This document shows positions 1,115 to 42,145 of a DNA stretch of 42,145 nt, piece after piece; position 1 is the stretch's first letter; every line of letters begins with the position of its first letter. A program made the position numbers and the translations under genes. The stretch is from sequence record NC_073322.1, one strand, 5' to 3'. This DNA comes from Escherichia phage vB_EcoS-Ro145c2YLVW. Under the pieces are notes generated by a model. It was given only the letters and a program-made list of their open reading frames with translations. It made no database searches and was not told the DNA's origin.

Positions 1115-1477
1115 ATGAGTAACAAAAACGAAGTATTCGAGTACCTGATTGACCAACTACGGCAACAGGTAAACAGCAATCAGTGCGAAGACCTGGCGCA
1201 CGAGGTGCAGTCACTTAAGAATCAGTTACGCGATGCGTCGGCGCTGGTGGCTGAGTTACAGAGTGAGTTGCAGCATCAGATTGACCTGGCGGCGGGTGTG
1301 TATAGATGGTCTACCGCATATTTCGACGAGAAAGGTAAAGTCACCAGGGTGGAGCGCGGGGTTAAGAGCGAGCAATCAGGTTGCCGTAAAGAAGATACAC
1401 AGGAATGCGGGCATGATTGGTACTTTTACGATAAAGGCACATCGATGATGTGCAAGAAATGCGGGCTGAAGAAATGA
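1115..1477 (+). CDS. hypothetical protein, coiled-coil with C-terminal Cys cluster
   Basis: Track ORF 1106..1477 trimmed to ATG 1115; C-terminal C...C...CxxC. Confidence 0.5.
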   Translation: MSNKNEVFEYLIDQLRQQVNSNQCEDLAHEVQSLKNQLRDASALVAELQSELQHQIDLAAGVYRWSTAYFDEKGKVTRVERGVKSEQSGCRKEDTQECGHDWYFYDKGTSMMCKKCGLKK

Positions 1478-4893: not shown

Positions 4894-5126
4894 TTACCAG
4901 CATTCCTAAACTGATTGAAGAGTACGGAAGTATGTCGGAGACCTGCCGACAAACCGGTATCTGCGAAATGACGATTGCCAAGTACAGCAAAGACGTGAAC
5001 TGCGAGCGCCACGTAATTTATAACAACCGTCTGATGACGCACGTTAAGACAAGCCCGGTGTTATTCACGCGCCGCGGTATCACTAAAACTGAGCAACGTA
5101 TTGCTAAAGAGGAGAGTGGGGGATGA
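4890..5126 (+). CDS. hypothetical protein, possible HTH
   Basis: TTG start after AAAGGAGAGACAA leader; coupled to neighbours. Confidence 0.45.
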   Translation: MITSIPKLIEEYGSMSETCRQTGICEMTIAKYSKDVNCERHVIYNNRLMTHVKTSPVLFTRRGITKTEQRIAKEESGG

Positions 5127-5305
5127 TTGATATTTTGAGGGCTACAAATGCTGCCGGTGACCTGGTGTTTTGGTTGGCCTTTCTCGGTGTGCTGATAAAA
5201 CAACCGACTTTGTTTAACGTTATTCCTCGCTATCTGTGGTGGCCTATGTTTTTAGGCATGGGAGTATCAGGAGTGGCTGGTATCCTTTTGTGGTTTTTCA
5301 AATGA
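5123..5305 (+). CDS. small membrane protein
   Basis: 60 aa, two hydrophobic segments; last gene before terminator. Confidence 0.5.
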   Translation: MIDILRATNAAGDLVFWLAFLGVLIKQPTLFNVIPRYLWWPMFLGMGVSGVAGILLWFFK

Positions 5306-5407
5306 GGCTACTAATCATCCCGAACGCCTGGGCTATCGCTGTAGCTAACGACCATTACGGCGGCGACGGTAAAAGAGCACCACGACACTGCCTATATAAC
5401 TGATACA

Positions 5408-5432
5408 AGCCCTCTACGGAGGGCTTTCTTTT
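5408..5432 (+). terminator. rho-independent terminator
   Basis: AGCCCTC-TACG-GAGGGCT hairpin followed by TTCTTTT. Confidence 0.65.
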
Positions 5433-5459
5433 ACATCCCGCCTAATCCCCTTATATAAT
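5431..5459 (+). promoter_or_regulatory. sigma70-like promoter (TTACAT-17 nt-TATAAT) for packaging/head operon
   Basis: Near-consensus hexamers directly after terminator and upstream of terminase small subunit. Confidence 0.5.
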
Positions 5460-5524
5460 CCCTTTAGACGCGTAGGGCGCGTCTGGTGCGCTCTGATGGT
5501 CAGACGCATATGCAAGGGGATTAT

Positions 5525-6070
5525 ATGAAGCTGAAACTCAAGCAGCCATCGCCAGAGGTGGTGCAAGCTGCGCATGAAGAAGCTGTTAGCGCGAACCGTC
5601 GCCGTAAACGGCCGCGCGGTAAACAGAGCCTTTATCAATCGTCCCGTAATTCCGCTGCGTTGTGGGACCCGGACTATTGTGACGAATTGATTCGTTTCTT
5701 CGACCGCACGTCATGGGAACTTGTGCCTACGTCCAAAGGTGACGAACGCCCGCTGATTCAGGATAAGCCACCGTCACTGGCCCGCTTTGCCTTACACATC
5801 GGCGTCACTATCCCGATTATTAAGCTGTGGCTGCGTGAGATTCCCGCATTTGCAGAAGCCTATGAAACTGCACAGGCGCTGGAAGAGGCGTACTTCACTG
5901 AGACAGGCGCGGCGGGCATCTCCGCTACGTTTGCCGCTGCGAAGCTGGGCCTTAGCAAAGAGAAACCGGTTGAATCCACCGAAAAAACGGCGCCGACTGA
6001 GATTATTTTCAGTGTTGCAGAGCCTGTAGGTAAAATCGTAACAACGAATATGGGCGAGGTAGAGGAATGA
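5525..6070 (+). CDS. terminase small subunit (putative)
   Basis: Immediately upstream of and overlapping terminase large subunit; basic N-terminus and HTH-like segment; track ORF trimmed to ATG 5525. Confidence 0.6.
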   Translation: MKLKLKQPSPEVVQAAHEEAVSANRRRKRPRGKQSLYQSSRNSAALWDPDYCDELIRFFDRTSWELVPTSKGDERPLIQDKPPSLARFALHIGVTIPIIKLWLREIPAFAEAYETAQALEEAYFTETGAAGISATFAAAKLGLSKEKPVESTEKTAPTEIIFSVAEPVGKIVTTNMGEVEE

Positions 6071-7317
6071 GTATTCAGCTATCCGCCCCTCAGGCGCTGT
6101 TTCTTAATTGCGATAACAAATACAAAGCCTACGTCGGCGGCTTCGGCAGCGGCAAAACATTTGTTGGCTGCCTAGACCTGCTTACGTTTATGCTTAAGCA
6201 TCCCGGTACACGCCTTGGCTACTTTGGACCAACATATCCGGCTATCCGAGACATCTTCTATCCGACATTCGAGGAAGCGGCTAACCTGCTAGGCCTCGAT
6301 GTGCTTGTTAAATCTGGGGACAAAGAGGTAGTGGTTACCCGTGGTAAGACAGTGCTCGGGACAGTTATCTGCCGGTCGATGGATAACCCAGGCTCGATAG
6401 TCGGCTTCAAAATCGCGGCTGCGGTCGTGGATGAGCTCGATGTATTGAGTCGCGAGAAAGCTGAGCTGGCGTGGAACAAAATCGTAGCCCGTATGCGTCT
6501 GGTCATCCCGGGCGTAATCAACCACATCTCCGTAACCACGACACCGGAAGGATTCAAGTTCGTCTACGCCAAGTTCAAAGAGAACCCGACGCCGAGCTAC
6601 TCTATGGTGCAGGCATCAACTCATGAGAACGCCAGATTCCTGCCGCCGGATTATATTAGCTCGCTGACAGAGACTTACCCGGCGCAGTTGATTAACGCAT
6701 ATCTTAACGGTGAGTTCGTCAACCTGACATCCGGCAGCGTGTATTACGCATACGACCGCCGTAAGCATCGCAGCAAAGAGACAATTCAGCCTGGCGACAC
6801 GCTGTACATCGGGCAGGACTTCAACGTTACGAAGAATGCCAGCGCCGTGTATGTGCAACGTAAAGACGGCTGGCACGCGGTAGCGGAACTGAAAGGACTG
6901 TTCGATACGCCGGACACCGTGCGCGTAATTACTGAGAAGTGGAAGTCACAAGGCCACCGCATCGTCGTTTACCCTGACGCCAGCGGCAAGAACCGCAAGA
7001 CCAACTCGGCGTCAATCTCTGATATTGCATTACTCCAGCAGGCCGGGTTCGATGTGCGGGCTAAATCAGCCAACCCGCCGGTTAAGGACCGTGTTTTAGC
7101 CGTGAATACCGCGCTGGAAAAAGGTAAGCTGTGGGTTAACGACCACTTATGCCCCGAGATAGCCAAGACGCTGGAGCAACAGGCATATGACGATAACGGA
7201 GAGCCAGCTAAAGACGGCATCATTGACCATATGGCAGATGCGCTCGGCTATCCTGTAGTTTACGAGATGCCAGTGGTTAAACCAGTAATCAACATCCCGG
7301 TGACTTTCGCACTTTAA
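6067..7317 (+). CDS. terminase large subunit
   Basis: Walker A GGFGSGKT near N-terminus, about 416 aa, followed by portal gene. Confidence 0.9.
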   Translation: MSIQLSAPQALFLNCDNKYKAYVGGFGSGKTFVGCLDLLTFMLKHPGTRLGYFGPTYPAIRDIFYPTFEEAANLLGLDVLVKSGDKEVVVTRGKTVLGTVICRSMDNPGSIVGFKIAAAVVDELDVLSREKAELAWNKIVARMRLVIPGVINHISVTTTPEGFKFVYAKFKENPTPSYSMVQASTHENARFLPPDYISSLTETYPAQLINAYLNGEFVNLTSGSVYYAYDRRKHRSKETIQPGDTLYIGQDFNVTKNASAVYVQRKDGWHAVAELKGLFDTPDTVRVITEKWKSQGHRIVVYPDASGKNRKTNSASISDIALLQQAGFDVRAKSANPPVKDRVLAVNTALEKGKLWVNDHLCPEIAKTLEQQAYDDNGEPAKDGIIDHMADALGYPVVYEMPVVKPVINIPVTFAL

Positions 7318-7329
7318 GAGGATTATTCA

Positions 7330-8805
7330 ATGTTAACTATGAACGGTCAGAATCAGGGTGTTAAGACGAAACACCAGGAATGGCTGCATCACTTCGATAA
7401 ATGGCAGAAGGTACGTCACGCACTGGAAGGCGACCTTATTCGCTATCTGCGCAACGTCGGGAAGAACGAGCCTGACCCGACCTACGCGGCACAGCGCCAG
7501 GAAGAATATGAGAACGGCGCTATCTGCTACAACTTCACTAAACGTACCCTGGCGGGGATGGTCGGCAGTGTCATGCGCAAAGACCCTGAGCAGATTATCC
7601 CCCCTGAACTTGAGTACCTGTTACGCAATGCTGATGGTTCCGGTGTCGGGCTGTGGCAGCACGCACAGGATACTTTGATGGAGATTGACTCGGTGGGCCG
7701 TGGCGGGCTGCTGGTGGACGCCCCTGAGACAGCTGCGGCAACGGCAGCAGAACAGAACGCAGGATTATTAAACCCGGTCATTGCATTCTACACCACGGAG
7801 AACATCATCAACTGGCGACTGACACGCGTCGGTTCAGTCAACCGTGTGACTATGGTCGTGCTGCGTGAGGTATGGGAATACTCAGAACCGGGGGCAGAGT
7901 TTGAAACCAAGTTCGGTGAACAGTTCCGCGTCCTCGACCTGATTGATGGTCGTTACCGCCAACGCATCTATCGCTTCGATGTCGAAGGCGGCGCTCAGGA
8001 CGAAGTAATCGAAATATTCCCGGAACTCGGCGAACAGTTACGTGGCAAAATCCCGTTCACGTTTATTGGCGCAAGCAACAACGACGCCACTATCGACGAT
8101 GCGCCTTTGCTGCCGTTGGCCGAGCTAAACATAGGACACTTCAGAAATTCGGCTGATGTGGAAGAGGCCAGCTTTATAGTAGGCCAGCCCACTCTGTTCA
8201 TCGCCCCCGGCGATAATATGAGCATGGAGCAATGGAAAGAAGCCAACCCCCACGGCATCCGCATGGGGTCGCGTTCTGGTCACAACATTGGCTACGGCGG
8301 CACTGCGTTTCTGGTTCAGGCGGCGGAAACTAACCTCGCCAAACAGAACATGCTGGATAAAGAGAATCAGGCCATCCAGATTGGCGCACAGCTTATTACC
8401 CCGACGCAACAAATCACCGCTGAATCGGCCCGCCTGCAACGAGGTGCGGATACGTCCGTTATGGCGACAATCGCACGCAACGTAAGCATGGCGTACACCG
8501 ATGCGCTACGCTGGGTAGCTGCGATGCTTGGGCTTCGTGAGGATACTGAGATTGAGTTCAAGCTGAATATGGAGTTCTTCCTGCAACCGATGACCGCCCA
8601 GGACCGTGCTCAGTGGATGGCCGACATCAACGCCGGTCTGTTACCAGCTACCGCTTACTACGCGGCATTGCGCAAGGCGGGTGTAACTGACTGGACAGAT
8701 GAGGATATTCAGAACGCTATTGAAGACGCGCCGCTGCCGGTTTTTACACAGACTACCGGGGAAATTCCGGCTACAGCACAGCAGGATGAAGAGGCGCAGC
8801 AATGA
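7330..8805 (+). CDS. portal protein
   Basis: 491-aa protein directly after terminase large subunit; AAGAGGA SD before ATG 7330. Confidence 0.8.
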   Translation: MLTMNGQNQGVKTKHQEWLHHFDKWQKVRHALEGDLIRYLRNVGKNEPDPTYAAQRQEEYENGAICYNFTKRTLAGMVGSVMRKDPEQIIPPELEYLLRNADGSGVGLWQHAQDTLMEIDSVGRGGLLVDAPETAAATAAEQNAGLLNPVIAFYTTENIINWRLTRVGSVNRVTMVVLREVWEYSEPGAEFETKFGEQFRVLDLIDGRYRQRIYRFDVEGGAQDEVIEIFPELGEQLRGKIPFTFIGASNNDATIDDAPLLPLAELNIGHFRNSADVEEASFIVGQPTLFIAPGDNMSMEQWKEANPHGIRMGSRSGHNIGYGGTAFLVQAAETNLAKQNMLDKENQAIQIGAQLITPTQQITAESARLQRGADTSVMATIARNVSMAYTDALRWVAAMLGLREDTEIEFKLNMEFFLQPMTAQDRAQWMADINAGLLPATAYYAALRKAGVTDWTDEDIQNAIEDAPLPVFTQTTGEIPATAQQDEEAQQ

Positions 8806-10321: not shown

Positions 10322-10348
10322 AAGGCCCCATTATGGGGCCTTAGTTTT
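10322..10348. terminator. bidirectional hairpin terminator
   Basis: AAGGCCCCA-TTA-TGGGGCCTT stem-loop followed by AGTTTT; sits between convergent genes. Confidence 0.6.
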
Positions 10349-11523: not shown

Positions 11524-12225
11524 ATGAATCGTTTTTTACGTTATCCGTTCCAGGAAGAAGCTGGGGCAGAAGATAAATCCGCCGGCGGTGACGCGCCGAA
11601 AATGTTCACCGCTGAAGAAGTTCAGGCGCTGATTGAGAAAGAAGTTGCCGGGCTTAAGGCCAATCAGGAAGCATTGCTGGCGGAGAAGAAAGAAGCTGCC
11701 CGTAAAGCAAGAGAGGCTGAAGAAGAACGGCAGCGCGCACACCAGGAGGCATTAAAAGCCGCCGGTAAGATGGACGAGTTCGAAAAGACGATTCGTAGCC
11801 AGTATGACCCGGTGTTAGCAGAGAAAGATGGTCGCATCACCAAAATGGCTGAGCGCATCCTCGGCAGCGAACGTAAAGCGGTGTTAGGCTCTTTCGCTGG
11901 TGACTTTATTACCCCGGAAGCAGTAGACATTCTTGCGTCGTTCGTTATGACTGGGTTCGAAGGCGATGATGTTGTTACTAAGTTTGTTGGCGCAGACGGT
12001 AACGTAATCACGACTGACCCGGAACAGTTCCGCAAATACCTGCGCGAACACAAAGCGTTTTCGCATTTGATTAAAGCAAATGCAGCTTCCGGCGGCGGGG
12101 CTTCCGGTGGCAAAGGCGGCGGGGCCGCACCAGCGTTTAAAGACATGAGTGAAGCGGAGCGTTTAGCTCTGTATAAATCGAACCCTGCCGAATTTGAACG
12201 GCAACTTAAAGCCCTGAGGAAATAA
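11524..12225 (+). CDS. scaffolding protein (putative)
   Basis: Coiled-coil, Ala/Glu/Lys-rich 234-aa protein directly upstream of major capsid gene. Confidence 0.55.
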   Translation: MNRFLRYPFQEEAGAEDKSAGGDAPKMFTAEEVQALIEKEVAGLKANQEALLAEKKEAARKAREAEEERQRAHQEALKAAGKMDEFEKTIRSQYDPVLAEKDGRITKMAERILGSERKAVLGSFAGDFITPEAVDILASFVMTGFEGDDVVTKFVGADGNVITTDPEQFRKYLREHKAFSHLIKANAASGGGASGGKGGGAAPAFKDMSEAERLALYKSNPAEFERQLKALRK

Positions 12226-15348: not shown

Positions 15349-15686
15349 TGAGCACCGATTTCAGTAAACGTATGCAAGGCGTAGGTACGCGCCTGCTAAC
15401 CAAATTCGGTAGCACGGTATCTCTGGTTCGCGCTGGCTCGAAAGTGTGGGACGAAGTTCTCGGCGAATACGTCTGGTCTGCGGATGAAGTGTTGCCGTTG
15501 AAGGCCGTTCCGGTTCCTGTTAACGCAGGACTGGTAAACGGTACGACGATTCAGGCAGGTGACATGATCGTTAAGGCTGATTACAGCGTCGTTCCGAAGA
15601 TGGAAGACAAGGTGCAATTTGGCGGCGAGCAATGGTCTATCGAAGCCATTGAGAAGAAGATGGTTAATGATGATGACGTGTCCTAA
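15348..15686 (+). CDS. head-tail joining protein (putative)
   Basis: Track ORF 15294..15686 trimmed to ATG 15348 overlapping upstream stop. Confidence 0.45.
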   Translation: MSTDFSKRMQGVGTRLLTKFGSTVSLVRAGSKVWDEVLGEYVWSADEVLPLKAVPVPVNAGLVNGTTIQAGDMIVKADYSVVPKMEDKVQFGGEQWSIEAIEKKMVNDDDVS

Positions 15687-15703
15687 TTTATGCAGGTGAG
15701 AAA

Positions 15704-16102
15704 ATGACAACATTTGAACAGTCTATTCAGAATTTTATAAAGAAGGCCAAAAAGAACCCTGAACTGGTGGTTCGCCAGGTCACGATTAAATTATATTCTC
15801 AGATTATAATGGCAAGTCCCGTTAAGACGGGTAGATTCAGGATGAATTGGCAGGTCAGTAATAACAAGCCAGCAACGGGTGTTTTAATAGCAGACGACCC
15901 TTCCGGGAGCAGAGCTATAGGTCGGATGACAAATTACGTTATATCATCTCCTGAGTGGGAAAATTTCTGTTTTACAAATAATTTGCCATATGCGGAAAGG
16001 TTAGAATATGGGTACTCACAACAAGCACCTCAAGGCATGGTCCGTGTGACTGTCGCCAGATTTCAACGTCTACTCAACGAAGCTGCGGCGAGGGCAGATT
16101 GA
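15704..16102 (+). CDS. tail completion / neck protein (HK97 gp10-like, putative)
   Basis: Size and position before major tail protein. Confidence 0.45.
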   Translation: MTTFEQSIQNFIKKAKKNPELVVRQVTIKLYSQIIMASPVKTGRFRMNWQVSNNKPATGVLIADDPSGSRAIGRMTNYVISSPEWENFCFTNNLPYAERLEYGYSQQAPQGMVRVTVARFQRLLNEAAARAD

Positions 16103-24900: not shown

Positions 24901-25217
24901 TATTACACTACACCCGTAACGAAGACGGTACTTTCGACCGCAAACGGTACAACGTACCGCCGATGGAATACGTCGTTGCTAACATCCCTGACGGGGTGCC
25001 GGTACGTATTTACCGGGGCGAGATTGGCGAGGATACGGAAGTAACGGAAGATTTCGAAGCGCTGAAAGAAGACGACGTATTCCATATTATCGAAGGTGCT
25101 GGTGGCGGTGGCGGTGTTCTCGGAAAACTGCTTGACCCATTGGGTGTGCTTAAGTTTATCACTAAACTGATTTCCCCGTCGCAGACAACGCCTAAAACTA
25201 GTGTAGCTAACCAGTAA
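24891..25217 (+). CDS. tail assembly protein (lambda I-like position)
   Basis: Small protein with poly-Gly linker; C-terminal 17 codons repeated at N-terminus of next gene. Confidence 0.5.
   Translation: MALILHYTRNEDGTFDRKRYNVPPMEYVVANIPDGVPVRIYRGEIGEDTEVTEDFEALKEDDVFHIIEGAGGGGGVLGKLLDPLGVLKFITKLISPSQTTPKTSVANQ
25164..25214 (+). repeat. 51-bp direct repeat, copy 1
   Basis: AAACTGATTTCCCCGTCGCAGACAACGCCTAAAACTAGTGTAGCTAACCAG; 49/51 identical to 25278-25328. Confidence 0.8.
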
Positions 25218-25259
25218 TCCGGAGGGGGTTGTGTAGGGAAAGAGCGTAAACCTTGGGGG

Positions 25260-27560
25260 GTGCCGAAGTATTTCAAAAAACTGATTTCCCCGTCGCAGAA
25301 AACGCCTAAAACTAGTTTAGCTAACCAGCAGGCGGAGTCGCCAAACAACAACCTGACGGACCGAAACAATAAACCTCGCCCGTATGAGCGGTCGTATGAT
25401 ATTTGCGGCAGGGTACAGACTATCCCTAATGACCTCATGACTACCTATAAAATATTCGATGAATCCGGCCGAATTATCGAGTATGGATACTACGACGCCG
25501 GTCGAGGTTACCTGGATATCAAAGCAGAAGACATTACTGACGGCGATACTAAAGTACAGGAGATTACAGGTACATCTGTCGCGGTGTATGCGCCGTTTAC
25601 ATCGCCTAACAATACAAATACTCCTCAGCTTCTGGTGGGGGAACCTATCAATCAGAATCTTTATATAACTATCGCTTCTAATGAAGTAGACGGAGCCGTT
25701 CTTAAAGCCCGTAACGATATAAGGGTTAACCCTAGCGACACGGGCCGTGTGAGATATGACTCTGCTACAAAAATTGGATACCTGTATGATGGCACGGGGG
25801 ATTCTGGCTTCGCGGAAATATTATCTGTTGGCGATACCGCGTCGTTCAATAACTTTGACGTTCCGGACGTAACAAATACCAACGGCAACTTTCGTGTTCT
25901 TTATGTCGATAACTTCGAGCTGCGGGTCGACACCGGCGGCGCGTCTAACTGGGCTGCTTTAGGTTCAACCACCTATTCACTTTCCCCGAGAAGTGACACG
26001 TGGGTGGGCCCTGTGAATACGTATGAAAGAACATTAACCGACTGGACCACCTTAAACCGCCTGGAAGTTGAACGAGTAGTTGCTAACATTGCCGCCGCGA
26101 ATGGCATGTACAAGGACAACGGCAGTAAATTGCGCACCGCTGTAACTGTAGAGCTTCAATATCAGCTACTAGATGAATCCGGGGCACCGTACGGAAGCAT
26201 TTACTCGAAACAGGCCACTATATCCGGGCGGTCCGCAGATTACACCGGGGTCACCATTTACGCCGACCTGCCCGTGCGGTCGAAAGTCAGGGTACGCGCC
26301 CGGCGTGTTACCAACCTGGACCTCGATTTCGAGGGCACCGTGGTAGACGAGGTTTCCTACATCAACCTTTACGGGCAGGTCCGCGACACTACGCCGCATT
26401 ACGGCAACCGTACTACTGTACACTCTGCACGTAAGCCGACGCCGCGGGCCGCAGAGATTAAGCAGCCGCAGCTACGTATGGTCGCGACGGAGATGGTGTA
26501 CAAATACCTCGGCAACGGCGTATTTGACGCGGTTATGACACCTAATACCCAAGCCGTTCAGTCGTTAATACGCCTGGCGCGGGACCCAGTAGTAGGAAAC
26601 CTCAATCTCACCACGGCTAACATGGATAAGTTGTTGGCTACGCAAGCAGAGATTGAAAATTATTTCGGAAATGCTGAGGCTGGGCAGTTCTGCTACACAT
26701 TCGATGATTACAAAACGACTATGCAGGACATCATCAGCACAATAGCTGATGCTATTTTCTGCACGCCATATCGTAAAGGGCAAGACATATTACTGGATTT
26801 CGAGCGCCCTCGTATGGGGCCGGAGATGGTATTCACCCACCGCAGTAAAACAACGGCATCCGAGAGGTGGACTAGGACATTCAACGACGCTCAGGTATAC
26901 GATAGTCTTAAGTTCTCCTACATCGACCCAGATACCAACGTAAAAGAGACTATTAGCATTCCAGCCGAAGGTGGTGTTAATACCGAAACGTATGACTCCA
27001 AGGGTATACGTAATTATCGCCAGGCGTACTGGGCGGCGTACCGCCGCTACCAGAAAAACCTGTTGAAGAAGGTAACGGTATCATTCACGGCGACAGAAGA
27101 AGGGATTTTTGCAATGCCTGGGCGTGCGGTAAGTGTGGTAAAAGGTTCGCGTATGGCTCCACAAGACGGCTATGTAATCGCCGTTAACGGGCTTACGCTT
27201 ACTCTTTCTCGGCCGGTCGCGTTTACTCCTGGGGATGACCACTCACTGATTCTTAAGAAGCGAGACGGGGGAGTTCAAAGTGTTGCCGTTGTGCCTGGAA
27301 GCCACGACCGTGAAGTGGTTATGCTATCCGCGCCGCAGGAGGCAATTTACACGGGGAATAGCGCACTAAAAACTGAGTTTTCATTCGGCAACGAAGCAAG
27401 GCATAATGCTCAGATGATTCTTGTTTCTACAGTTGACCCCGGAGATGACAGAACAGTTAAGATTACCGGGATTAACTATGAAGCAGATTTCTATAAATAC
27501 GACGGCGTCGCGCCTTTCGGTCGCGGTTTCTCCGACGGATTCAGCAACGGTTTTAGTTAA
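25260..27560 (+). CDS. central tail fiber / tail tip protein (J-like, putative)
   Basis: 766-aa protein downstream of tail-tip assembly genes; GTG start after CTTGGGGGG. Confidence 0.65.
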   Translation: MPKYFKKLISPSQKTPKTSLANQQAESPNNNLTDRNNKPRPYERSYDICGRVQTIPNDLMTTYKIFDESGRIIEYGYYDAGRGYLDIKAEDITDGDTKVQEITGTSVAVYAPFTSPNNTNTPQLLVGEPINQNLYITIASNEVDGAVLKARNDIRVNPSDTGRVRYDSATKIGYLYDGTGDSGFAEILSVGDTASFNNFDVPDVTNTNGNFRVLYVDNFELRVDTGGASNWAALGSTTYSLSPRSDTWVGPVNTYERTLTDWTTLNRLEVERVVANIAAANGMYKDNGSKLRTAVTVELQYQLLDESGAPYGSIYSKQATISGRSADYTGVTIYADLPVRSKVRVRARRVTNLDLDFEGTVVDEVSYINLYGQVRDTTPHYGNRTTVHSARKPTPRAAEIKQPQLRMVATEMVYKYLGNGVFDAVMTPNTQAVQSLIRLARDPVVGNLNLTTANMDKLLATQAEIENYFGNAEAGQFCYTFDDYKTTMQDIISTIADAIFCTPYRKGQDILLDFERPRMGPEMVFTHRSKTTASERWTRTFNDAQVYDSLKFSYIDPDTNVKETISIPAEGGVNTETYDSKGIRNYRQAYWAAYRRYQKNLLKKVTVSFTATEEGIFAMPGRAVSVVKGSRMAPQDGYVIAVNGLTLTLSRPVAFTPGDDHSLILKKRDGGVQSVAVVPGSHDREVVMLSAPQEAIYTGNSALKTEFSFGNEARHNAQMILVSTVDPGDDRTVKITGINYEADFYKYDGVAPFGRGFSDGFSNGFS
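25278..25328 (+). repeat. 51-bp direct repeat, copy 2
   Basis: AAACTGATTTCCCCGTCGCAGAAAACGCCTAAAACTAGTTTAGCTAACCAG. Confidence 0.8.
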
Positions 27561-41990: not shown

Positions 41991-42145
41991 ATGAGAGAAG
42001 CATTTGAACGCTGGGCCGTAGTCGAGGGGCTGCCGGTTAACAAGGGTTCGAAGAAAGAGTACCTGAACGTTAAGACGCGTCTCGCGTGGCGGGCGTGGAA
42101 AGCTGGCGTTCGAACTGCGATGAATAAGGAGGTGAAACATGAGCG
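41991..42145 (+). CDS. hypothetical protein, 5' fragment running off window end
   Basis: ATG 41991, open to window end; may continue into the partial ORF at window start if the genome is circularly permuted. Confidence 0.3.
   Translation, partial: MREAFERWAVVEGLPVNKGSKKEYLNVKTRLAWRAWKAGVRTAMNKEVKHE

What the first reader, a model, noticed from the sequence alone, without database searches (positions are those of the whole stretch)
5431..5527. Nested palindromes between the late promoter and terminase small subunit start
The -10 region (TATATAATCCC, 5452-5462) is an inverted repeat of the ribosome-binding region (GGGATTATATG, 5514-5524). Between them lie two mutually exclusive hairpins sharing the GCGTCT segment (AGACGCG/CGCGTCT and GCGTCTG/CAGACGC). 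This could be an operator for a late regulator, an RNA switch controlling terminase translation, or part of a packaging recognition site.
Basis: seen in the sequence. Interest (0 to 1): 0.4.

Follow-up and report, generated by a model that had tools for sequence, protein, structure and literature searches.

The report
Promoter-embedded RNA lock on terminase gene
The DNA in front of this phage's packaging (small terminase) gene encodes a conserved three-armed RNA fold that hides the ribosome-binding site only in RNA read through from upstream. RNA started at the built-in promoter lacks the hiding arm, a trick known from phage T4 and seen here in a new phage group.

Summary
The window is a Kagunavirus (99.8% Escherichia phage Ro145clw).

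Layout of 5407-5528:
- intrinsic terminator
- sigma70-type promoter (-35 5430-35, -10 5454-59)
- two adjacent hairpins, HP1 5466-84 and HP2' 5486-5509
- SD/AUG of terS

The -10/discriminator (5451-64) pairs with SD-spacer-AUG (5515-28). This closes a three-way junction around both hairpins.

HP2' replaces it, so there is no hairpin-swap switch.

The junction recurs before terS across Guernseyvirinae and, in weaker form, Dhillonvirus. All three helices covary: 12 of 31 pairs change on both sides, versus 6.8 +/- 1.5 in shuffles (0/500). SD and discriminator co-change (GGGGA/CCCU, GAGGA/CCUU, AGGAG/CUCCU). The sense strand folds better in 14 of 16 lineages. Rfam has no match.

Best reading: T4 gene e-style gating. 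Read-through RNA has terS's RBS locked; promoter-initiated RNA starts just past the anti-SD arm and is open. This is inferred, not shown. In most Kagunaviruses the helix is imperfect. The invariant hairpin triloops (AGG, UGG) remain unexplained. Nothing supports a pac site or operator.

The parts
5407..5434 (+). Intrinsic terminator of the upstream co-directional gene block. Stem 5407-5414/5419-5426, loop TACG, T-tract TTTCTTTT.
   Evidence: Found by the scan. 98.9% paired in 46 relatives, with a U-A to G-C compensatory pair. A terminator occupies the same place in nearly every lineage examined.
5430..5435 (+). -35 element TTTACA (18-nt spacer). It overlaps the terminator T-tract. Every other Kagunavirus/Jerseyvirus-type relative in the set has TGTACA here.
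   Evidence: TTTTCTGTACA is invariant in all other Kagunavirus/Jerseyvirus-type sequences; the window-specific changes are at 5428, 5429 and 5431.
5454..5459 (+). -10 element TATAAT (TACAAT in Jerseyvirus).
   Evidence: The pattern TA[T/C]AAT is invariant, while the spacer varies in sequence but not in length.
5451..5464 (+). 5' arm of the closing helix (anti-SD arm): the -10 hexamer plus discriminator CCCTT. It lies upstream of the predicted start site, so it is present only in RNA coming from upstream.
   Evidence: Minimum-energy fold. Covariation: 4 of 10 core pairs change on both sides.
5466..5466 (+). Predicted transcription start: an A, 7 nt after the -10 and the first base of HP1.
   Evidence: Inferred from promoter geometry only; not measured.
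5466..5484 (+). HP1: AGACGCG(U)-AGG-(G)CGCGUCU, a 7-8 bp stem with an AGG triloop.
   Evidence: 99.7% paired. 3 of 8 pairs covary across lineages and 6 of 8 on the model-fitted alignment.
5486..5509 (+). HP2': GUGCG[C]UCUGA-UGG-UCAGACGCAU, 10 bp with one bulged C and a UGG triloop. The apex GAUGGUC is conserved across genera.
   Evidence: 99.6% paired. 5 of 10 pairs covary.
5515..5528 (+). 3' arm of the closing helix: Shine-Dalgarno GGGGA (5516-5520), spacer UUAU, AUG (5525-5527) and the first base of codon 2.
5525..6070 (+). terS (small terminase, 181 aa), overlapping terL (6067-7317) by ATGA.
   Evidence: PHROG 3064 'terminase', E 8e-74, aligned from residue 1. terL has Terminase_6N/6C domains. 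Substitutions are synonymous downstream of 5525 and non-synonymous upstream.

Best explanation
This is a compact transcription-unit junction whose RNA decides whether small terminase is translated. The upstream co-directional gene block (small early-type ORFs, including a NinH-like gene) ends at an intrinsic terminator (5407-5434). A sigma70-type promoter follows at once, and its start site is predicted at A5466.

RNA started there begins with two stable hairpins, HP1 and HP2', followed by about 15 unpaired nucleotides that carry the SD and AUG of terS. That RNA should be translatable. The 5'-terminal hairpin probably also protects the message from 5'-end-dependent decay.

RNA that reads through the terminator also contains the promoter's -10 hexamer and discriminator (5451-5464). 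These are complementary to the SD-spacer-AUG (5515-5528). The two arms close a three-way junction around HP1 and HP2', which buries the ribosome-binding site. terS, and the overlapping, probably translationally coupled terL, would therefore be made only from the dedicated promoter.

This is the logic of phage T4 genes e, soc, 49 and I-TevI, and of IS10 'fold-back inhibition'.

Shown here: the structure exists, is conserved, covaries and favours the sense strand; in the Guernseyvirinae lineages the anti-SD arm lies between the -10 and the predicted start.

Inferred: the start site, the existence and amount of read-through, and the effect on translation.
For: - Anatomy: terminator and 11/12 promoter match.
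- Folds: promoter-initiated RNA gives HP1 + HP2' with a free SD. Read-through RNA gives a 14-bp closing helix and a three-way junction, z -4.1.
- Accessibility: the predicted unpaired probability of SD-AUG falls from 0.58 to 0.14 in the window, and from 0.57 to 0.31 on average over 67 relatives.
- Recurrence: the same three-way junction is the minimum-energy fold in 15 of 17 lineage representatives. These include three roughly 60%-terS metagenomic lineages, phiEap-2, VLCpiS11a, St162, STP-1 and, more weakly, Dhillonvirus.
- Covariation on an unbiased MAFFT alignment of 14 lineages: 88.6% of cells paired versus 82.0 +/- 1.0; 12 pairs with changes on both sides versus 6.8 +/- 1.5 (0/500). That covers 4 of 10 closing-helix pairs, 3 of 8 in HP1 and 5 of 10 in HP2'. 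The model-fitted alignment of 51 loci agrees: 16 of 31 pairs, with all measures at 0/500.
- SD and discriminator co-vary: GGGGA/CCCU, GAGGA/CCUU, AGGAG/CUCCU. The third base of the -10 co-varies with the spacer: TATAAT/ATTATA against TACAAT/ATTGTA.
- Strand: sense-strand RNA is more stable than antisense in 14 of 16 lineages, with 1-5 G.U pairs each.
- Precedent: T4 e, soc, 49 and I-TevI (PMC3014915).
Against: - No transcript data. The start site and the read-through are predictions, and a terminator sits directly upstream.
- In most Kagunaviruses the spacer is ATTCTATG, which puts a U.C mismatch in the helix (29 of 46 sequences). About a quarter also carry discriminator variants that break a further pair.
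- Natural recombinants L056 and L057 combine a Kagunavirus promoter with a Jerseyvirus leader and keep only a weak helix.
- Against shuffled upstream sequence of the same pyrimidine-rich composition, occlusion is clearly significant only for the window type (2/300) and a few other lineages. It is not significant for the Kagunavirus majority (31/300) or for Jerseyvirus (41-95/300).
- eiAU keeps both hairpins but has no closing helix. In L247 the helix abuts the SD rather than covering it.
- Gating does not explain the invariant AGG and UGG triloops.
Confidence: 0.5

Rival explanations
1. The three-way junction, or the two hairpins with their invariant AGG and UGG triloops, is a docking site for a trans-acting factor or nuclease. 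Candidates are a phage or host protein that represses or activates terS translation (Com/mom-like activation, or TerS autoregulation), or RNase III cutting the closing helix to process read-through RNA. The promoter-embedded arm would then be secondary.
For: - Loops are conserved while stems covary across lineages whose terS is only 25-35% identical: GAUGGUC apex and YAGGG loop.
- eiAU keeps HP1 and HP2' without the closing helix, so the hairpins have a role of their own.
- The closing helix (14 bp) stacked on HP1 (8-9 bp) approaches the length of an RNase III substrate.
Against: - No candidate protein was identified and there is no experimental hint.
- Triloop conservation could reflect folding or stability alone.
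- The element is single-copy in the genome.
- Loops do vary in some lineages: AGA, UGA and CGG.
Confidence: 0.2
2. This is an ordinary junction and nothing more: terminator, promoter and a leader with stabilising hairpins. The complementarity between the -10 region and the RBS would be a by-product of a pyrimidine-rich promoter region facing a purine-rich SD and an A/T-rich spacer, with no function.
For: - Occlusion is not significant against composition-matched shuffles for the commonest Kagunavirus and Jerseyvirus types.
- The helix carries mismatches in most relatives.
- Recombinants with a weak helix exist in nature.
Against: - Five closing-helix positions switch between Watson-Crick pairs across lineages, including SD/discriminator co-changes.
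- On two alignments, no shuffle reaches the observed number of covarying pairs for the whole structure.
- A rough combined test over 11 lineages gives p about 0.003. This is my own Fisher combination of the counts and assumes the lineages are independent.
Confidence: 0.12
3. The element works in DNA. It would be a pac recognition site for the small terminase, or an operator for a regulator, with the inverted repeats read in duplex or cruciform DNA.
For: - It lies immediately upstream of terS, where SPP1 has its pac site (recalled from memory).
- Relatives package by the headful mechanism.
- TAATCCC occurs 3 times within 80 bp and only 4 times in the genome.
Against: - Stems covary while loops stay fixed, and G.U pairs are tolerated on the sense strand only, with sense more stable in 14 of 16 lineages. 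Duplex-DNA sites do not behave this way.
- The upstream TAATCCCC copy is absent in Jerseyvirus.
- PhageTerm on relatives finds random, permuted ends and no fixed end here.
- Record starts inside the region are conventions: K47 begins exactly 50 nt before the ATG, and Schulenburg/Shashou begin at a predicted RBS.
Confidence: 0.07
4. HP1 + HP2' is a put-like cis-acting RNA that binds RNA polymerase and makes it resistant to terminators in the morphogenesis operon.
For: Two adjacent hairpins separated by a single G lie directly after a promoter, which resembles HK022 putL. Terminator-like hairpins exist further downstream on the + strand.
Against: - The element is 44 nt with simple stems. put is about 70 nt, with bulges, non-canonical pairs and a triplex.
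- It is single-copy.
- The terS unit probably ends at the convergent terminator near 10.3 kb, with no strong internal terminator before it.
Confidence: 0.04
5. One reading: an RNA switch that toggles between two mutually exclusive hairpins sharing GCGTCT.
For: Both 7-bp complementarities exist in the window.
Against: - The second hairpin loses its central pair in every Jerseyvirus-type leader and shows no covariation.
- The very substitution that breaks it (G to T) is compensated in HP2' (C-G to A-U).
- It is not part of the minimum-energy fold in any of 23 leader variants, and it is absent from the RNAalifold consensus.
Confidence: 0.03

Closest known systems
Phage T4 genes e (lysozyme), soc, 49 and I-TevI: an RBS-sequestering hairpin with a promoter in its 5' arm (PMC3014915)
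   Same: Long transcripts from upstream fold so that the SD and AUG are paired. A promoter lies inside or at the 5' strand of that structure, so its own transcripts lack the inhibitory arm and are translated. The arrangement is conserved among relatives.
   Different: - Here the promoter is a host sigma70-type -35/-10 promoter, not a T4 late TATAAATA promoter.
- The two arms are 50 nt apart and close a three-way junction around two further conserved hairpins, rather than forming a simple local hairpin.
- The gated gene is small terminase.
- Nothing here has been tested experimentally.
IS10/Tn10 'fold-back inhibition' of transposase translation in transcripts from external promoters (recalled: Davis, Simons and Kleckner 1985; no open-access source found)
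   Same: A sigma70 promoter's own transcript is translatable. Read-in transcripts carry upstream sequence that pairs with the RBS.
   Different: That case is a mobile element protecting itself from host read-in. It has no three-way junction, and an antisense RNA adds a further layer of control.
5'-terminal stabilising stem-loops such as the ompA leader (recalled: Emory, Bouvet and Belasco 1992)
   Same: HP1 begins at the predicted +1, within 0-2 unpaired nt in all lineages. This is the geometry that blocks 5'-end-dependent RNase E/RppH decay.
   Different: Conserved triloop sequences and a second conserved hairpin are not needed for that role. The half-life effect is untested.
HK022 put RNA (PMC9378689)
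   Same: Two adjacent stem-loops just downstream of a phage promoter, with a single unpaired G at the junction between them.
   Different: - Much shorter: 44 nt against about 70 nt.
- No bulged or non-canonical architecture.
- One copy only.
- No evident need for antitermination in the roughly 4.9-kb terS unit.

Membership tests
T4 gene e-type promoter-embedded translational lock (a mechanistic class, not a homologous family) | SD and/or AUG base-paired in transcripts that come from upstream | tested here: met
   The predicted 14-bp helix 5451-64/5515-28 covers the SD and AUG. The same fold appears in 15 of 17 lineage representatives, and the helix covaries. This rests on prediction and comparison, not on structure probing.
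T4 gene e-type promoter-embedded translational lock | A promoter lies in the 5' strand of the structure, so its own transcripts lack that strand | tested here: met
   The -10 (5454-59) and discriminator (5460-65) form the 5' arm, and the predicted +1 (5466) is the first base after it. The anti-SD sits in the discriminator in the Guernseyvirinae lineages. The start site itself has not been measured.
T4 gene e-type promoter-embedded translational lock | Upstream transcripts actually extend into the gene | not testable with these tools
   Upstream ORFs are co-directional, but an intrinsic terminator intervenes. The only transcriptome paper on a Kagunavirus gives no nucleotide-level data.
T4 gene e-type promoter-embedded translational lock | Long transcripts are translated much less than promoter-initiated ones | not testable with these tools
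   Only predicted accessibility is available: 0.58 against 0.14.
HK022 put antiterminator RNA | About 70 nt; two long stem-loops with bulges, non-canonical pairs and a triplex | tested here: not met
   The element is 44 nt, with two simple stems of 7-8 and 10 bp and one bulged base, compared with the description.
HK022 put antiterminator RNA | Sits upstream of terminators that must be read through; more than one site per genome | tested here: not met
   The element is single-copy. No strong + strand terminator lies between 5466 and the convergent terminator near 10.3 kb.
Lambda-type nut site (boxA + boxB) | Single-stranded boxA (CGCUCUUA) followed by a boxB hairpin with a GNRA-like pentaloop | tested here: not met
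   CGCUCUGA at 5489-96 matches 7 of 8 (boxA consensus recalled from memory), but it is buried in the HP2' stem and changes to CGCUAUGA in Jerseyvirus. The loops are triloops.
pac site of headful phages (SPP1, P22, P1 types) | Terminase cleavage or packaging series initiating at this place | not testable with these tools
   No reads are available. Published PhageTerm runs on relatives give random, permuted ends or a generic 'P1-like headful' call without a position.
pac site of headful phages | Conserved duplex-DNA recognition repeats | tested here: not met
   Stem sequences change by compensation while loops stay fixed, and the sense strand is favoured. The upstream TAATCCCC copy is not conserved.
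Any curated Rfam family | Covariance-model match | tested here: not met
   There is no hit in 5400-5530, even at E up to 10.
Sigma70-type promoter | -35 and -10 hexamers conserved at a fixed 17-18 nt spacing, with a variable spacer sequence | tested here: met
   11/12 match in the window. TA[T/C]AAT is invariant and the -35 region is conserved while the spacer differs between genera at constant length. Dhillonvirus has an extended -10, TGTTATAAT. Promoter activity has not been measured.
Intrinsic terminator | GC-rich hairpin followed by a U-tract, with the stem kept by compensation | tested here: met
   (U-A to G-C in 7 sequences).
5'-terminal stabilising stem-loop (ompA type) | Stable hairpin within a few nt of the mRNA 5' end | tested here: inconclusive
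   The geometry fits if +1 is 5466. Neither the start site nor the half-life has been measured.

The most novel reading that the evidence does not exclude
The two leader hairpins, with their near-invariant AGG and UGG triloops (the GAUGGUC apex), form a previously undescribed cis-regulatory RNA module at the 5' end of terminase operons in several enterobacterial siphovirus genera. The loops would be read by a specific partner, such as the small terminase itself, another phage protein, or the ribosome or RNA polymerase. That would add a second control layer (autoregulation, timed activation or processing) on top of the promoter-embedded lock.
Probability: 0.2. Interest if true: 0.65.

Novelty: new member of a known kind. 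Interest (0 to 1): 0.42.

Why it matters
If the gating is real, a host-type promoter's -10 and discriminator do double duty as the anti-Shine-Dalgarno strand. This lets a small lytic phage keep terminase off in RNA that leaks through from its earlier genes without needing any regulator protein.

It also defines a covariation-supported leader RNA that is absent from Rfam. It is present before terS in Kagunavirus, Jerseyvirus, several unclassified Guernseyvirinae and, in weaker form, Dhillonvirus and Eiauvirus.

Practical consequences:
- It corrects the terS start in many deposited genomes. The GTG/ATG 39 nt upstream lies inside HP2' and is not a conserved start.
- It identifies the sequence that must be preserved or redesigned when these therapeutic-candidate phages are engineered, or when their terminase is expressed from foreign promoters.

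Tried and rejected
- **Rfam scan of 5000-6000 at E up to 10:** only three chance snoRNA-like hits, none in the region.
- **Motif reuse:** TAATCCCY occurs 4 times in the genome and AGACGCG 13 times, scattered. There is no operator-like set of sites.
- **Exact-pattern scan of IMG/VR for the HP2' apex (TGATGGTCANACGCAT):** beyond known relatives, only chance matches inside unrelated genes.
- **Metagenome scan with a promoter-to-HP1 pattern:** more Kagunavirus and Jerseyvirus variants, but no new lineage.
- **GenBank record starts as hints of a packaging end:**
  - K47 starts in the HP1 loop, but exactly 50 nt before the ATG.
  - Schulenburg and Shashou were arranged to match published relatives and start at a predicted RBS.
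  - fBC-Eco01 had no PhageTerm ends.
  - All are conventions.
- **Kagunavirus time-course transcriptome paper:** no terminase timing and no 5'-end data.
- **N-terminally extended TerS from GTG 5486:** rejected. Across lineages the frame is either out of register with terS or closed by a stop. Changes upstream of 5525 are non-synonymous and compensatory, and the PHROG profile aligns from residue 1.
- **boxA/nut and Q-type readings:** rejected (see the membership test).
- **Covariance model of HP1+HP2' searched over the window:** one real copy. A 15.8-bit hit at 1266-1319 lies inside an ORF and is taken as chance.
- **A distant, low-GC terS group (L319-L330):** lacks the element and has a different leader.
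Full report
**What the window is.** Positions 5000-7400 are 99.8% identical to Escherichia phage vB_EcoS-Ro145clw (Kagunavirus, Guernseyvirinae). Several hundred Kagunavirus and Jerseyvirus genomes match at 75-95%. The ORF at 5525-6070 is the small terminase: PHROG 3064, E 8e-74, aligned from residue 1. It overlaps terL (Terminase_6N/6C), and portal and head genes follow. Upstream on the same strand lie lysis genes and a run of small ORFs, including a NinH-like one. The last of these ends at 5305.

**Checking the observation.**
- TATATAATCCC is at 5452-5462.
- AGACGCG/CGCGTCT is at 5466-72/5478-84.
- GCGTCTG/CAGACGC is at 5479-85/5501-07.

The consensus scan adds context. An intrinsic terminator lies at 5407-5426 plus its T-tract. 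The best sigma70-type promoter match in the genome (11 of 12: TTTACA, 18 nt, TATAAT) lies at 5430-5459.

**What the RNA would fold into.**
- RNA starting at the predicted +1 (A5466, 7 nt after the -10) folds into two adjacent hairpins.
  - HP1 is 5466-5484.
  - HP2' is 5486-5509: 10 bp, one bulged C and a UGG triloop.
  - The SD and AUG stay largely unpaired. The fold is -28.3 kcal/mol, z -2.7.
- RNA that includes the promoter folds into a three-way junction.
  - A 14-bp helix pairs 5451-5464 (the -10 plus discriminator) with 5515-5528 (SD, spacer, AUG).
  - This helix closes around HP1 and HP2'.
  - The fold is -42.3 kcal/mol against -28.6 +/- 3.3 for shuffles, z -4.1, 0/200.

**First comparative round (Kagunavirus and Jerseyvirus).** I aligned 46 distinct sequences.
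- The terminator, HP1 and HP2' are 98.9%, 99.7% and 99.6% paired.
- Each has one compensated pair:
  - terminator: U-A to G-C
  - HP1: G-C to U.G
  - HP2': C-G to A-U
That hairpin shows no covariation.
- Twenty-two of 23 distinct leader variants fold into the same two hairpins. RNAalifold predicts them independently.
- The promoter shows a classic footprint. TA[T/C]AAT and the -35 region are invariant, while the spacer differs in sequence but not in length.
- The start codon is 5525. Downstream differences between genera are synonymous. Upstream differences are non-synonymous and follow base pairing.

**The long-range helix looked weaker at this stage.**
- It is perfect only in the window and a minority of relatives.
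- Most Kagunaviruses have ATTCTATG, which gives a U.C mismatch (29 of 46).
- Some also carry discriminator variants.
- Two natural recombinants join a Kagunavirus promoter to a Jerseyvirus leader.
- Arm-arm duplex energies beat shuffles only modestly, with p between 0.002 and 0.09.
- Predicted occlusion of the RBS holds on average (0.57 to 0.31 unpaired).
- Against composition-matched shuffles of the upstream part, occlusion is clearly significant only for the window type (2/300) and one other type.
- Two compensated pairs between the genera were suggestive, but they represent one phylogenetic split: the third base of the -10 with the spacer, and discriminator C with the SD G.

**Second round: more distant lineages changed the picture.** I fetched the terS upstream regions of these lineages.
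- Dhillonvirus SECphi18 and Eiauvirus eiAU, with terS 25-26% identical.
- Five metagenomic lineages with about 60% terS identity.
- phiEap-2, VLCpiS11a, St162 and STP-1.

Nearly all show the same order: terminator, promoter, HP1, HP2', SD. The stems have different sequences, but the loops are conserved.
- HP1 carries an AGG triloop in a YAGGG context.
- HP2' carries a UGG triloop closed by A-U, giving the apex GAUGGUC.

The closing helix is also present, and its sequence tracks the SD.

| Lineage | SD | Discriminator |
|---|---|---|
| Kagunavirus | GGGGA | CCCU(U) |
| Jerseyvirus | GAGGA | CCUU |
| STP-1 | AGGAG | CUCCU (8 perfect pairs) |
| VLCpiS11a | GGGGG | CCC |

L248 repeats the TACAAT/ATTGTA pairing, and L250 repeats TATAAT/ATTATA. 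The three-way junction is the minimum-energy fold in 15 of 17 lineage representatives. eiAU lacks the closing helix. In L247 the helix abuts the SD rather than covering it.

**Formal covariation test.**
- On a MAFFT alignment of 14 lineage representatives (not fitted to any structure):
  - 88.6% of cells are paired, against 82.0 +/- 1.0 in shuffles.
  - 12 of 31 pairs change on both sides, against 6.8 +/- 1.5 (0/500).
  - The structure slid by 1-3 columns gives at most 52% paired.
  - Covarying pairs occur in the closing helix (4 of 10), HP1 (3 of 8) and HP2' (5 of 10).
- A covariance model built from that alignment finds the element directly upstream of terS in 51 of 66 loci searched.
  - Matches include ten Dhillonvirus genomes, and eiAU weakly.
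  - It does not match the L247/L335 lineage or a distant low-GC terS group.
- On the resulting model-fitted alignment, which leans towards the structure, 16 of 31 pairs covary and all five measures exceed every shuffle.
- Sense-strand RNA is more stable than antisense in 14 of 16 lineages (mean -4.4 kcal/mol), with 1-5 G.U pairs per structure. This argues for RNA made in the terS direction rather than a DNA palindrome.

**Mechanism.** In the Guernseyvirinae lineages the anti-SD strand is the promoter's discriminator plus the 3' part of the -10. That is the stretch that ends just before the predicted start site. Transcripts from this promoter cannot contain it; transcripts from upstream must.
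- This is the arrangement established for T4 genes e, soc, 49 and I-TevI. There, long early transcripts have a sequestered RBS and late-promoter transcripts lack the 5' strand of the hairpin (PMC3014915).
- From memory, IS10 uses the same logic against read-in transcription.
- I therefore take this as the most likely function: terS, and the overlapping terL, are translated only from the dedicated promoter, and RNA leaking through the terminator is silent.
- HP1 at the very 5' end probably also protects the mRNA.

None of this has been measured. The start site, the read-through and the translational effect are all inferences, and the helix is imperfect in many relatives. I put this reading at about 0.5.

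**What remains unexplained.**
- The triloops are near-invariant, and both hairpins persist in eiAU without the closing helix. The hairpins therefore do something on their own.
- A protein or nuclease partner is the main rival (0.2).
- A put-like antiterminator is unlikely.
  - The element is 44 nt with simple stems (compare).
  - It is single-copy.
  - The terS unit seems to end at a convergent terminator near 10.3 kb, with no strong terminator before it.
- A pac site or operator is not supported.
  - The conservation pattern is RNA-like.
  - Relatives show random, permuted ends.
  - Record starts in this region are conventions.
  - A pac site cannot be excluded without read data.

**Novelty.** The papers I searched contain only generic promoter and terminator predictions for these phages. 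Rfam has no matching family. The principle is known, so this is a new, more elaborate instance of it (a three-way junction using a sigma70 -10/discriminator) in a different phage group. It is also a new conserved leader RNA motif.

Noticed in passing
window 5389, 5428, 5429, 5431: Four of the only five differences from Ro145clw in the first 11.9 kb cluster here. They change the terminator T-tract from TTTTCTG to TTTCTTT, and the -35 from TGTACA to TTTACA, which is closer to consensus. TGTACA is invariant in all other Kagunavirus/Jerseyvirus-type relatives in the set. This could be a promoter-up or terminator-altering variant, or a small patch or sequencing difference.
   Followed up: partly
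window 5486 (GTG) to 5524: Many deposited genomes annotate terS from the GTG/ATG 39 nt upstream, inside HP2', or place their first base there. Across lineages that frame is out of register or closed by a stop, and substitutions there are non-synonymous. ATG 5525 is the real start.
   Followed up: yes
L056 (Salmonella phage L223) and L057 (SE126_1pH), about 60-120 nt upstream of terS: These natural recombinants have a Kagunavirus-type promoter and spacer joined to a Jerseyvirus-type leader and RBS. The breakpoint lies between the -10 and HP1. They weaken the closing helix, which shows it is not essential.
   Followed up: partly
L319-L330 (IMG/VR contigs with 35-37% terS identity), about 60 nt upstream of terS: A distant low-GC terS group has a different leader. 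The order is terminator, extended -10 (TGTTATAAT), then a hairpin with a U-tract (GCGGATCGAAAGAGCCGC TTTTTT) just before the SD. It looks like a leader terminator or attenuator in front of terminase.
   Followed up: no
window, whole genome: The HP2' apex heptamer GATGGTC occurs 11 times in the window, 9 of them on the + strand. Dinucleotide shuffles give 3.9 +/- 2.1, and none of 100 reaches 11. Codon bias (GAT GGT) may explain the excess; this was not examined.
   Followed up: no
window 42073-42082: AGACGCGTCT is a 10-bp palindrome made of the two HP1 arms fused without a loop, near the end of the window. It is probably chance.
   Followed up: no
window 25214-25277, 11937-11973 and 15676-15710: The remaining differences from Ro145clw also come in tight clusters. 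The alignment breaks between 25214 and 25256, and the window is 114 bp longer than the record. This suggests small mosaic patches or indels.
   Followed up: no
window 1266-1319: There is a weak covariance-model hit (15.8 bits, rough E 0.018) to the HP1+HP2' model inside an ORF. It shares TAGATGGTCTACCGCATAT with the real element and is taken as chance.
   Followed up: partly
window 10322-10342: A palindromic GC-rich hairpin (AAGGCCCCATAATGGGGCCTT) sits between the end of the five-gene terS unit and a small opposite-strand gene. It is probably a bidirectional terminator that bounds the unit at about 4.9 kb.
   Followed up: no
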